DNA of 64,000 nt from Escherichia coli. GTDB lineage: Bacteria > Pseudomonadota > Gammaproteobacteria > Enterobacterales > Enterobacteriaceae. The DNA is taken from NCBI RefSeq assembly GCF_041886205.1, contig NZ_CP169029.1. One strand, written 5' to 3'. A program made the position numbers. Every line of letters starts with the position of its first letter. Positions within the stretch are counted from its first letter, which is position 1. Of the stretch, positions 49,701 through 52,700 are shown one piece after another.

Positions 49701-52700
49701 TGGTTATCCAGCTTCACTTTCAGTAATTTCGCGCCTGCCTGCCAGAGTGTTGATGCACTATTGGCCATCTGATCAGGCGTACCGATGACTACCGTCTGTG
49801 CAGTGATAACTGTCTCGGGAAGCGTTATGCCGATCAAATCAGCCAGCGATTGCTGCTGTTTTCGCGCGGCCAGATCCCACAATGCACAATCCAGCGCATT
49901 ACGTGCTGCGCCGGCAGGGAGAATTTTTTGCAACTCCTCCCGTGTCAGCCCTTTCTCTAATTGCGACACGACGCTCATAATTTGCGCCATTACCGAGGCA
50001 TCACTTTCTCCATAACGCGGATACGGCGTGCATTCGCCGGTGCCTTTAATACCCTCTTCTTCCAGTTCAACCACCACCACGCGCGCTTCACTGCGACTTC
50101 CCCGGGCAATCACAAACGGGGTATGTAAGGGCCAGGCTTCCTCAAATACCTTAACGGTTCTCATCTTTACTCCTTGTTGTCGCGGTGGTCTGCGGATTAA
50201 GCGCAAATAGCGTTTGCTGTGTTATTGACAGTTAGCATAAACTAGGTGTGACGTTAACTATATGTAAACAGGAAAGATAATCATGTCACAAACCGTTCAT
50301 TTCCAGGGCAACCCGGTTACAGTCGCCAATTCCATCCCGCAGGCGGGTAGCAAAGCGCAGACTTTTACTCTCGTGGCAAAAGATCTGTCTGACGTCACCC
50401 TCGGTCAGTTTGCGGGTAAACGCAAAGTGCTGAACATTTTCCCGAGTATTGATACCGGTGTTTGCGCCGCATCAGTACGTAAGTTTAACCAACTGGCAAC
50501 TGAGATCGACAACACCGTTGTGCTGTGTATCTCTGCCGATCTGCCGTTCGCCCAGTCTCGTTTCTGCGGCGCAGAAGGTCTGAACAACGTTATCACCCTC
50601 TCCACTTTCCGTAACGCTGAATTTCTGCAAGCTTACGGTGTGGCAATTGCTGATGGCCCACTGAAAGGTCTGGCAGCGCGTGCCGTTGTGGTTATTGACG
50701 AAAATGACAATGTGATTTTCAGCCAGCTGGTGGATGAAATCACCACCGAGCCGGATTACGAAGCAGCTCTGGCTGTACTGAAAGCATAATTTAATATGCC
50801 TGATGGTGTTGCACCATCAGGCATATTCGCGCTTACTCTTCGTTCTTCTTCTGACTCAGACCATATTCCCGCAACTTATTGGCAATCGCGGTATGTGAAA
50901 CGCCGAGACGTTTTGCCAGTTTGCGCGTGCTGGGATAATTGCGATAAAGCTGGGTTAATACCGAGCGTTCAAAACGGCTGGTGATTTCGTCCAGCGAACC
51001 TTCCATCGCATCTTCGCCCACGGCTACCGTTGCGGCGTCATAATCCGGCAACAAAATATCCTGTGGACGCAGCTCATAACCGTCCAGTTGTGTCAGTGCG
51101 CGATAGATAGCGTTCTTTAACTGCCGCACATTTCCCGGCCACGCACAACGCGTAAGTACAGTATTCAGGTCAGCGGCCAGTTTCGGACGCGGCACGCCCT
51201 GCTCGTCGGCAAAGCGGGCGACGAACAGCTCAGTTAACGGCATGATGTCCTGCGGACAGTCACGTAGCGGCGGCAGATTGAGCGTCAACACGTTCAGACG
51301 ATAATAGAGATCTTCACGGAACATGCCTTTTTGCACCAGTTCGACCAGATTCTTCTGCGTAGCACAAATCACCCGCACATCGACATGCACCTCATGGTCT
51401 TCGCCAACCCGACGGAAAGTGCCATCATTAAGGAAACGCAGTAATTTCGCCTGCATCCGTGGTGACATTTCCCCTATTTCATCCAACAGCACCGAACCAC
51501 CGTTCGCCTGCTCAAAGAATCCTTTCTTCCCTTCCGGAGCATGACCAAACAGTTCACTCTCGACCGCATCTTCCGGTATAGACGCACAGTTCAGCGCCAG
51601 GTAAGGTTTGCCCGCTCTGGGGCTTGCCTGATGGCAGGCGTAGGCAAAGAGATCTTTACCTGTACCTGTGTCACCCGTAATCAGCAGCGGCGCGCTTAGC
51701 ATCGCCAGTTTCTGCGCCTGTTCGACAACATGCTTCATTTTCGGGCTGACGGCGACAATTTGACTGAAGGCGCTGACGTCCTGGGCGGCGACATTTTGCA
51801 ACTGGCGGCCCATACGAATCGTTGATCGCAACATCACCACCGCACCGGTCAGGACGTGTTGATCATTTTCATCCTGAAGATAAACAGGCGTAATCTCCAT
51901 CAGGAAATTCTGCCCATTAATAACGACATGCTCGTTATGGGAATCTTGCGGTTCGCTTTCCAGCCAACGTAAAAAATTAAAGCCGTTAATCAATTGTGCG
52001 GCGGTATGGTTGCGCAGGCGATCCAATTTTTGCCCAAAAAGCTGACAGCTCGCCGGGTTCGCCATATCCACTTTGCTTTTCATATCGACAGAGAGCACAG
52101 GTTCGGGCAACGCCTCCAGTAACGCGCTCAACGCCAGATGCTCACGTTCGGAAGGCATCCACGGGACAGTACGCACATCGGTAACACCTGCAATACGGCG
52201 TATTTCGGCCATCAGACTGCTGAAACTCTCAAACTCCAGTTCAGCAAAATTGAGGTAGATTCGCCCAATGGGATCAATCTCAATACCGCGTAAATCAATG
52301 CCTCTTAGCACGAGTAGATCGAGTAATTCGCGGGTCAGACCGAGTCGGTCTTCACAAAAGACTTCCAGACGCATGGGAACCTTCACCTGAAAAAAGAACA
52401 ATTAATATGATGATATGACACTATTTGGATAGCAGGAAGGTTTCTGTCAACAATCATTGACACAAAGACGGAAAAACGGGCACTTCGGCGTAAAGATATC
52501 CGGTCAGCACCCGATATTGCATTATTTTTCGCTGGGCGTTTTGCCTTTTTGCAGCGTTTCTTTCACCTGACCGATAAGCTGACGACGGAAATCCCCGAGG
52601 CGAGGTTTGTCATCGTCAATCCACGGCAGCGGGCGGCAAAGCTCCATAGCTTTAATCCCGAGTCGTGCCGTCAGAAGTCCAGCACCAATTCCCTGAGCTG

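What the first reader, a model, noticed from the sequence alone, without database searches (positions are those of the whole stretch)
50794..50826. Unusually long perfect hairpin between convergent tpx and tyrR
A 15-bp perfect stem with a 3-nt loop fills most of the 43-nt gap between the two stop codons, with AT-rich sequence on both sides. It is a candidate bidirectional terminator or RNA-stability element. A six-frame ORF (50796..50984) covers it but is almost certainly an artefact.
Basis: seen in the sequence. Interest (0 to 1): 0.25.

Follow-up and report, generated by a model that had tools for sequence, protein, structure and literature searches.

The report
Shared tpx/tyrR terminator hairpin
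A perfect 16-bp hairpin between the convergent E. coli genes tpx and tyrR marks where both mRNAs end, so it is an ordinary two-way terminator and 3'-end hairpin that is already in published 3'-end maps, unusual only for its long stem and weak U-tracts.

Summary
The hairpin is real. It fills 35 of the 43 nt between the two stop codons. RNA folding gives about -25 kcal/mol on either strand (z about -7), and it is the longest perfect hairpin in the window.

Bar et al. 2023 place the primary tpx end at window 50829 and the primary tyrR end at 50789. These lie 2 and 4 nt past the stem, so the two transcripts overlap by 41 nt across the hairpin.

In 65 other Enterobacteriaceae loci with a short gap, the same gap nearly always holds one hairpin. 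Outside Escherichia it is usually a textbook A-tract/GC-stem/U-tract bidirectional terminator. Escherichia has a different core (GCCTGATGG/CCATCAGGC), and most E. coli extend it to 14-16 pairs while keeping only 3 U in the 8 nt after the GC core.

My reading is a leaky, U-poor bidirectional terminator that also protects both 3' ends. A second hairpin and Rho back it up downstream on the tpx strand.

It is not a REP element, and the overlapping ORF is not conserved.

One Term-seq study instead puts a huge 3' end inside the tpx stop codon. That conflict is unresolved.

Overall: ordinary and already known.

The parts
50283..50789 (+). tpx coding sequence (thiol peroxidase), stop TAA at 50787-50789
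   Evidence: ORF listing; annotated as tpx under matches in E. coli genomes
50833..52374 (-). tyrR coding sequence (513 aa plus stop), stop TAA at 50835-50833 read on the - strand
   Evidence: ORF listing. The MG1655 annotation gives 1542 nt. The mapping MG1655 coordinate = 1439094 - window coordinate was checked by BLAST for window 48371-50894.
50793..50827 (.). Perfect palindromic hairpin: 5' arm 50793-50808, loop 50809-50811, 3' arm 50812-50827. Both transcripts contain it.
50798..50822 (.). GC-closed core of the hairpin (GCCTGATGGTG / CACCATCAGGC, 11 bp). Nine of these pairs, plus the adjacent A-T pair, are invariant across the Escherichia sequences examined.
50829..50829 (+). Published primary 3' terminus of tpx mRNA (MG1655 1388265; peak limits 1388259-1388270). 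It lies 2 nt past the full stem and 7 nt past the GC core.
   Evidence: Bar et al. 2023 Supplementary Data 2-4. Signal was 0.975 (LB RNAtag-seq), 0.966 (Barsheshet) and 0.993 (Dar & Sorek Term-seq).
50789..50789 (-). Published primary 3' terminus of tyrR mRNA (MG1655 1388305; peak limits 1388300-1388311). It lies 4 nt past the full stem and 9 nt past the GC core.
   Evidence: Bar et al. 2023 Supplementary Data 2-4. Signal was 0.756, 0.678 and 0.970 in the same three data sets.
50788..50788 (+). Conflicting, very strong Term-seq 3' end inside the tpx stop codon (UA|A), 5 nt before the first stem base. Its origin is unresolved.
   Evidence: Adams et al. 2021 Supplementary files 1 and 3: MG1655 1388306 (-), 463168 reads in LB OD 0.4 and 165722 in a second condition, Rho score 0.80 ('No')
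50878..50927 (+). Second, weaker hairpin with a UUUG tail on the tpx-sense strand, inside tyrR and antisense to it. It carries an 'alternative primary' tpx 3' terminus at 50927 and marks transcripts that passed the first hairpin.
   Evidence: Bar et al. 2023 Supplementary Data 3: MG1655 1388167, signal 0.67, fold -13.8 kcal/mol
51236..51236 (+). Peak position of a Rho-termination region on the tpx-sense strand, antisense to tyrR. It acts as a backstop for read-through.
   Evidence: Adams et al. 2021 Supplementary file 2: MG1655 1387858 (-), reads in the downstream 800 nt rise from 9 to 132 with bicyclomycin, Rho score 19.1, p 3.6e-30
50796..50984 (+). Six-frame ORF (62 aa) that starts inside the stem and runs antisense to tyrR; judged spurious

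Best explanation
The hairpin is the shared 3'-end signal of the convergent tpx and tyrR transcription units. It works as a bidirectional terminator with poor U-tracts and then stays on both mRNAs as a protective 3' stem-loop.

Shown:
- Either strand transcribes into the same 16-bp hairpin.
- Steady-state tpx RNA ends at 50829 and tyrR RNA at 50789. That is 7 and 9 nt after the GC-closed core, the usual spacing for intrinsic termination. The two mRNAs therefore overlap by 41 nt.

Inferred:
- The AUAUU segment after the core gives an all-A/U RNA:DNA hybrid.
- Because AUAUU is exactly complementary to the upstream AAUAU, the stem can grow five more pairs into that hybrid. This would compensate for the missing U-run.
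- Termination is incomplete. On the tpx strand, read-through is caught by a second hairpin about 100 nt further on and by Rho about 400 nt further on, both inside antisense tyrR. Exonucleases then trim such RNAs back to the hairpin.
- Collisions between converging polymerases paused at the hairpin may add to termination, as proposed for this class of site.
- Each stop codon lies within 3-5 nt of the stem, so a terminating ribosome must melt part of it.
For: - Structure and significance.
- Transcript ends on both strands just past the stem, in three data sets including Term-seq.
- Read-through measure: 0.97-0.99 for tpx and 0.68-0.97 for tyrR on a scale that approaches 0 for full read-through.
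- Positional conservation: 79 of the 82 loci then held (80 genome loci plus two E. coli records) have convergent tpx and tyrR. Of the 65 with a gap of 120 nt or less, nearly all have one dominant hairpin. Their median stem is 11 bp with a median of 6 U in the 8 nt after the GC core on each side, which is a canonical bidirectional intrinsic terminator.
- Citrobacter (AAAATGCCTCC..GGAGGCATTTT) and Escherichia share the outer ATGCCT/AGGCAT.
- No bicyclomycin effect at the site (Rho score 0.80), but a strong Rho region 450 nt downstream on the tpx strand.
- Within E. coli the hairpin is present in 5381 of 5426 complete genomes. The SNPs seen fall in the flanks or at the two ends of the stem, and folding energy stays between -23.5 and -25.2 kcal/mol.
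- The ynaJ-uspE model site of the same class, which is in this window, also terminates weakly on its own in vitro: 9% and 39% release.
Against: - There is no proper U-tract: 3 U in the 8 nt after the core on each side, and tail scores of -2.44 and -2.51 against medians of -4.49 and -3.65 in orthologues.
- The simple terminator scan does not call the site.
- Steady-state 3' ends cannot separate termination at the hairpin from trimming back to it.
- A Rho region and an alternative tpx end downstream show that some polymerases pass the hairpin.
- Adams et al. list a dominant tpx-strand 3' end before the hairpin and none after it.
- There is no covariation support within Escherichia: 10 of 16 pairs never vary.
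Confidence: 0.6

Rival explanations
1. The hairpin affects only RNA stability and processing. Polymerase reads through it in both directions and is stopped further on, by Rho or by other hairpins. PNPase and RNase II then chew back to the very stable stem, which creates the sharp 3' ends. The hairpin would set mRNA half-life, not termination.
For: - The U-tracts are weak and the simple scan does not call the site.
- A Rho-termination region (score 19.1) and an alternative tpx 3' end lie downstream on the same strand.
- The ends lie only 2 and 4 nt past the full 16-bp stem.
- Dar & Sorek 2018 describe this route in their abstract for Rho-dependent transcripts.
Against: - Orthologous sites in other genera are canonical intrinsic terminators, so termination is the ancestral job of this position.
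- The Rho score at the site itself is 0.80, meaning no bicyclomycin effect in the 800-nt windows.
- The ends are at the 7-9 nt spacing from the GC core that is typical of intrinsic termination.
- No Rho region is listed for the tyrR direction.
- The two roles are not exclusive.
Confidence: 0.27
2. It is a REP (palindromic unit) element or a remnant of one. It would be mobilised or recognised like other REPs and only secondarily serve the 3' UTRs.
For: - The arms begin with GCCTGATG, the 8-mer at the start of Z-type REP arms; GCCKGATG is enriched in the window (16 sites against 5.6 expected).
- REPs do sit in this same gap in Citrobacter sedlakii, C. amalonaticus and Salmonella.
- About 60% of E. 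coli REPs lie between convergent genes.
Against: - It is single-copy: one place per genome with the 221-nt and 71-nt queries in near mode. The second place in distant mode is the palindrome matching its own opposite strand.
- It is a perfect palindrome, without the REP mismatch bubble, the CGACGC/GCGTCTTATC arms or the CCTAC tail that the true REPs in this window have at 31806 and 56153.
- The 25-nt core has no other copy in the window even with 3 mismatches.
Confidence: 0.03
3. It is a DNA-level protein-binding palindrome (an operator or recombination site), or the start of a small protein gene (ORF 50796-50984).
For: A 16+16 perfect palindrome could bind a dimeric protein. An ATG-initiated 62-codon ORF starts in the stem.
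Against: - It sits at the 3' ends of both genes, not at a promoter.
- It does not resemble the TyrR box (TGTAAA-N6-TTTACA; consensus from my own knowledge).
- Other genera have unrelated hairpins at the same spot, which fits an RNA-structure role rather than a sequence-specific site.
- The ORF has no Shine-Dalgarno sequence, its ATG is base-paired, and the frame is cut to 18-47 codons in other Escherichia.
Confidence: 0.02

Closest known systems
Overlapping bidirectional terminators between convergent E. coli genes (Ju et al. 2019 SEnd-seq class; model site ynaJ-uspE, studied by Wang et al., bioRxiv 10.1101/2022.10.23.513370)
   Same: One hairpin sits between convergent genes. The 3' ends of both transcripts lie just beyond it, so they overlap across the stem-loop (41 nt here). 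It resembles canonical intrinsic terminators poorly, and there is no Rho effect at the site. The model site itself lies 5.7 kb away in this window, at 45087-45114.
   Different: I could not check whether tpx-tyrR is in the published list of about 306 sites, because the paper is not held. The stem here is much longer (16 bp against 7 bp at ynaJ-uspE), and neither direction has a U-run. Dependence on polymerase collisions is untested.
Canonical bidirectional Rho-independent terminator (A-tract, GC stem, U-tract)
   Same: Same position and same job as the hairpins at the orthologous site in Citrobacter, Enterobacter, Leclercia, Kosakonia and others. The outer stem ATGCCT/AGGCAT is shared with Citrobacter, and the transcript ends lie 7-9 nt after the GC stem.
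   Different: The A- and U-tracts are reduced to AAUAU/AUAUU (3 U in 8 nt). The stem is 16 bp rather than a median of 11 bp, and the GC-closed core is 11 bp rather than about 6.
Protective 3' stem-loops of Rho-terminated transcripts (Dar & Sorek 2018, PMC6061677)
   Same: A stable stem-loop without a U-tract sits at the mature 3' end, and Rho-dependent termination is detected downstream on the tpx strand.
   Different: No bicyclomycin effect at the site itself, no Rho region reported for the tyrR direction, and the orthologous sites are intrinsic terminators.
REP / palindromic units (BIME)
   Same: Extragenic palindrome between convergent genes that begins with GCCTGATG. REPs are reported to act as two-way terminators and decay blocks.
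   Different: Single-copy, perfect, shorter, and lacking the REP arm consensus and the CTAC tail.
RNase E entry site just upstream of a 3' terminator hairpin (rpsO M2-type decay; from my own knowledge, not checked here)
   Same: If the Adams et al. 3' end at UA|AUUU is real, it is a cut in an AU-rich single strand directly 5' of the hairpin, with U at +2. That fits the RNase E rule of Chao et al. 2017.
   Different: Other data sets do not report it. T50790 (the +2 U) is G in many E. coli. No RNase E dependence has been shown.

Membership tests
Canonical intrinsic (Rho-independent) terminator | GC-rich stem-loop in the nascent RNA | tested here: met
   16-bp perfect stem with an 11-bp GC-closed core; -25.2 and -25.8 kcal/mol; z about -7
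Canonical intrinsic (Rho-independent) terminator | Run of U (about 5 or more in 8 nt) directly 3' of the stem | tested here: not met
   AUAUUCGC and AUAUUAAA give 3 U in 8 nt on each strand. Tail scores are -2.44 and -2.51 against orthologue medians of -4.49 and -3.65. The scan does not call the site.
Canonical intrinsic (Rho-independent) terminator | RNA 3' ends 7-9 nt downstream of the stem | tested here: met
   Published ends at 50829 (+) and 50789 (-) are 7 and 9 nt from the GC core. This rests on published data, not on a new experiment.
Canonical intrinsic (Rho-independent) terminator | Termination by RNA polymerase alone in vitro, independent of Rho | not testable with these tools
   The only indirect evidence is a Rho score of 0.80 ('No') for the adjacent position in Adams et al..
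Overlapping bidirectional terminator of convergent genes (Ju et al. 2019) | One hairpin between convergent genes, with the 3' ends of both transcripts overlapping across it | tested here: met
   Convergent tpx and tyrR with a 43-nt gap; ends at 50829 (+) and 50789 (-) give a 41-nt overlap
Overlapping bidirectional terminator of convergent genes (Ju et al. 2019) | Termination depends on head-on and trailing polymerase collisions | not testable with these tools
   Needs convergent-promoter templates, as.
Overlapping bidirectional terminator of convergent genes (Ju et al. 2019) | Listed among the SEnd-seq bidirectional sites | not tested
   The paper and its tables are not held.
Exonuclease-blocking 3' stem-loop of Rho-terminated transcripts | Stable stem-loop without a U-tract at the mature 3' end | tested here: met
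Exonuclease-blocking 3' stem-loop of Rho-terminated transcripts | Rho-dependent termination downstream, with 3' ends that shift in Rho or exonuclease mutants | tested here: inconclusive
   A Rho region lies at window 51236 on the tpx strand (score 19.1), but the score at the hairpin is 0.80 and nothing is reported for the tyrR strand. No mutant data are available.
REP / palindromic unit | Many dispersed copies per genome | tested here: not met
   One locus per genome in 5381 genomes, and no second copy in the window with up to 3 mismatches
REP / palindromic unit | Imperfect palindrome with the conserved arms GCCKGATGCGRCGY...RCGYCTTATCMGGCCTAC, including the CTAC/GTAG head | tested here: not met
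   Only the 8-mer GCCTGATG is shared. The stem is perfect and has no CTAC; compare the true REPs at 31806 and 56153.
Rfam RNA families | Match to a curated covariance model | tested here: not met
   The only match was a chance-level hit to a microRNA precursor model (16.9 bits against a gathering score of 60; E = 1.5).

The most novel reading that the evidence does not exclude
In E. coli the ancestral U-tract terminator at this site may have been rebuilt into a U-independent one. Termination would rely on a stem that extends into the RNA:DNA hybrid (AAUAU pairing with AUAUU) and perhaps on polymerase collisions. In K-12-type strains the AU-rich spacer in and after the tpx stop codon would also be a real endonuclease entry site (UA|AUUU). 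That cut would sever the protective hairpin from the abundant tpx mRNA and release a 41-nt hairpin RNA that is complementary to the tyrR 3' end.
Probability: 0.12. Interest if true: 0.3.

Novelty: already known. Interest (0 to 1): 0.12.

Why it matters
It matters little beyond annotation. The finding gives tpx and tyrR defined 3' UTRs of 40 and 44 nt and a shared terminator, and published tables already contain this.

Three points give it modest value:
- It is a clean natural example of a conserved terminator position where a long perfect stem has replaced the U-tract. That makes it a convenient test case for U-independent or collision-assisted termination, next to the ynaJ-uspE model site 5.7 kb away.
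- The same gap repeatedly acquires inserted genes and REPs in other lineages.
- Two 3'-end mapping analyses disagree sharply at this perfect palindrome, which is a caution for anyone using such tables.

Tried and rejected
- **Rfam scan of 50000-51500, E up to 10.** Only a chance miRNA hit.
- **Simple promoter/terminator scan.** The hairpin is not called because it lacks a U-run. Terminator-like sites in the region were no more frequent than in shuffles.
- **REP membership.** Rejected on copy number and sequence.
- **ORF 50796-50984.** Rejected as a gene.
- **Covariation within Escherichia.** Uninformative: 10 of 16 pairs are invariant, and the observed measures do not exceed the shuffles.
- **Literature.**
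  - Ju et al. 2019 is not held, by DOI or by my guessed PMC id.
  - No supplements are held for Dar & Sorek 2018 or for the nanopore paper.
  - The TERMITe supplements hold nothing on tpx or tyrR.
  - The NaF paper and the TIER-seq paper mention tpx only in other contexts.
  - The REP preprint does not mention this locus.
- **Explaining the Adams et al. peak at 50788 as reverse transcriptase skipping the hairpin.** I tried this on paper. A skip would place the apparent end near 50793-50797, not 50788, so I do not adopt that explanation.
- **Pfam and PADLOC on the 680-aa gene inserted at this site in strain RMDEC465.** No hits.
- **Window-to-MG1655 coordinates.** I first assumed the window was collinear with MG1655 throughout. 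That is wrong beyond about 48.4 kb. The coordinate conversion is used only for 48371-51236: BLAST confirmed it up to 50894, and I assume it continues through tyrR.
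Full report
**Observation**

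The window carries tpx (50283-50789, +) and tyrR (50833-52374, -) converging on a 43-nt gap. Inside the gap is a perfect inverted repeat, AATATGCCTGATGGTG / CACCATCAGGCATATT. Its arms are 50793-50808 and 50812-50827 and the loop is TTG.

The 43-nt gap folds at -25.2 kcal/mol as + strand RNA and -25.8 as - strand RNA, with z-scores of -7.1 and -7.4 and no shuffle folding as well. It is the longest perfect hairpin in the 64 kb (16 bp; the next is 12 bp).

**Where the sequence comes from**

The locus is Escherichia coli. A 221-nt query across the gap matches 5414 of 5426 complete genomes, nearly always once, under the annotations tpx and tyrR. The 71 nt around the hairpin are identical in 2252 records and 95-99% identical in 3129 more.

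The window is not K-12. It is about 98% identical to MG1655 here and lacks IS5F and the ymjC-pgrR block. The gap itself is identical to MG1655. The conversion MG1655 coordinate = 1439094 - window coordinate was verified for 48371-50894 and agrees with the sequences printed in the published tables.

**What published 3'-end maps show**

Bar et al. 2023 (PMC10687069) list three termini for MG1655 grown in LB:
- a primary tpx terminus at 1388265 (-), which is window 50829, with signal 0.975;
- a primary tyrR terminus at 1388305 (+), which is window 50789, with signal 0.756;
- an 'alternative primary' tpx terminus at 1388167, which is window 50927.

Their table prints this very hairpin with -25.2 and -25.8 kcal/mol and records longest U-runs of only 2 and 3. 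I checked how their sequence columns are offset against the thrC row and against both rows here, and the coordinates agree.

The same pair of ends appears in their analysis of the Barsheshet RNAtag-seq data (1388264 and 1388304). It also appears in their analysis of the Dar & Sorek Term-seq data (1388265 and 1388305, signals 0.993 and 0.970).

So tpx mRNA ends 2 nt and tyrR mRNA 4 nt beyond the 16-bp stem. Measured from the GC-closed core (50798-50822) the distances are 7 and 9 nt. The two transcripts share a 41-nt complementary end.

**Read-through**

Some tpx-sense transcription passes the hairpin. There is the alternative end at 50927, after a weaker hairpin. Adams et al. 2021 (PMC7815308) report a Rho-termination region on that strand at MG1655 1387858 (window 51236). 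There, reads in the downstream 800 nt rise from 9 to 132 with bicyclomycin (score 19.1). The score at the hairpin itself is 0.80, which they classed as not Rho-dependent.

**A conflict between data sets**

The curated Term-seq list of Adams et al. contains no end after the hairpin. Instead it lists a very strong end at MG1655 1388306 (-), which is window 50788, between the second and third base of the tpx stop codon. It has 463168 reads in LB at OD 0.4 and 165722 in a second condition.

This position is within one base of the tyrR end on the other strand. It could be a real endonuclease cut: A|AUU with U at +2 fits the RNase E rule of Chao et al. 2017. However, that U is a G in many E. coli. 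It could also be an artefact of library preparation or peak calling at a perfect palindrome. A simple hairpin-skipping model does not reproduce the position. I leave this unexplained.

**Comparison with relatives**

A scan of species-representative genomes with the Tpx protein returned 80 loci.
- Together with two E. coli records fetched earlier, that made 82 loci, and 79 of them have convergent tpx and tyrR.
- Of the 78 analysed further, 13 have a long gap holding inserted genes or REPs, and 65 have a gap of 120 nt or less.
- Nearly all short gaps hold one dominant hairpin. The median stem is 11 bp, with a median of 6 U in the 8 nt after the GC core on both strands.
- Outside Escherichia the usual form is AAAA(A/T)GCCTCC-loop-GGAGGC(A/T)TTTT, a textbook bidirectional intrinsic terminator.
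- A minority of genera have long GC stems without U-runs.

Escherichia species share a different core, GCCTGATGG/CCATCAGGC, with stems of 10-13 bp and a GGCAUUU(U) tail on the tpx side. Most E. coli add pairs at both ends to reach 16 bp. The tail becomes AUAUUCG, and the window's tail scores are -2.44 and -2.51 against medians of -4.49 and -3.65. The outer ATGCCT/AGGCAT is shared with Citrobacter, which suggests descent from the ancestral terminator; this is my inference.

Natural E. coli variants change only the flanks (50790 T/G, 50829 G/A), the loop-closing pair (50808 G to A or C) or an outer pair (50826 T to A). Folding energy stays between -23.5 and -25.2 kcal/mol.

Within Escherichia there is no covariation: 10 of 16 pairs never vary and the measures do not exceed the shuffles. 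The support for an RNA-structure role is therefore positional. Unrelated hairpins occupy the same place in other genera.

**Mechanism**

- *Shown:* a very stable hairpin, transcript ends just beyond it on both strands, and downstream backstops on the tpx strand.
- *Inferred:* the hairpin terminates a large share of transcription directly. The all-A/U segment AUAUU serves both as a weak hybrid and as the complement of AAUAU, which lets the stem invade the hybrid. Polymerases that escape are stopped downstream, and their RNAs are trimmed back to the hairpin, which then protects both mRNAs.

Collision-assisted termination is possible. It has been proposed for the ynaJ-uspE site, which lies in this same window at 45087-45114 and releases only 9% and 39% of polymerases on its own in vitro.

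The main rival is that the hairpin only blocks exonucleases after Rho-dependent termination. The data in hand cannot exclude it. I rate direct termination plus protection at about 0.6 and protection only at about 0.27.

**What it is not**

- Rfam gives nothing.
- It is not a REP. It is single-copy, perfect, and lacks the REP arms and the CTAC head seen in the true REPs at 31806 and 56153. It shares only GCCTGATG with them.
- The ORF 50796-50984 starts inside the stem, has no Shine-Dalgarno sequence, and is cut short in other Escherichia.

**Verdict**

The element is an ordinary, already mapped, shared terminator and 3'-end hairpin. Its only unusual traits are the long perfect stem combined with degenerate U-tracts, and the unresolved disagreement between 3'-end data sets.

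Interest is low (0.12). Novelty: already known.

Noticed in passing
window 50788 (+): Adams et al. 2021 Term-seq lists a very strong 3' end inside the tpx stop codon, just before the hairpin, and none after it. Three other analyses put the end after the hairpin. The position is within 1 nt of the tyrR end on the opposite strand.
   Followed up: partly
window 45087-45114: The ynaJ-uspE bidirectional terminator (AAGGCCCGAGTTATCGGGCCTATTTTTT), the experimental model for collision-driven bidirectional termination, lies in this window 5.7 kb from the tpx-tyrR hairpin.
   Followed up: partly
L002 4088-6320 (E. coli RMDEC465, NZ_CM177019.1): In this strain the hairpin is absent. A 2.2-kb segment sits between tpx and tyrR, carrying a 680-aa hypothetical gene with its own terminator-like hairpins. 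The protein has no Pfam or PADLOC match. The last tpx codons also differ.
   Followed up: partly
L028 3283-4491; also L010, L029, L031, L034, L036, L038, L057, L079: Several genera have 0.7-1.5 kb inserted in the same gap. In Lelliottia it includes a 402-aa ORF whose N-terminus looks like a signal peptide. REP elements occupy the gap in Citrobacter sedlakii, C. amalonaticus and Salmonella. The tpx-tyrR gap appears to be a recurrent insertion site.
   Followed up: no
L087 2507-3100 (plasmid p48B2a, NZ_CP128583.1): A plasmid carries a diverged tpx copy together with the hairpin (one stem mismatch) and the first bases of the tyrR 3' end, all between IS elements. The hairpin therefore travelled with tpx.
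   Followed up: no
window 43739-50894 compared with MG1655: The window is about 98% identical to MG1655 here. It lacks IS5F (MG1655 1396044-1397238) and about 2.4 kb holding ymjC, ymjD, ycjY and pgrR, so it is not a K-12 strain although the tpx-tyrR gap is identical.
   Followed up: partly
Adams et al. 2021 Supplementary file 1 (not in this window): Other 3' ends in that table follow short perfect hairpins of the GCCGGAT type without U-runs. The convergent hpt/can pair (TGCCGGATGTGTTGCATCCGGCA) and erpA are examples. This hints at a wider set of REP-like mini-palindromes used as terminators.
   Followed up: no
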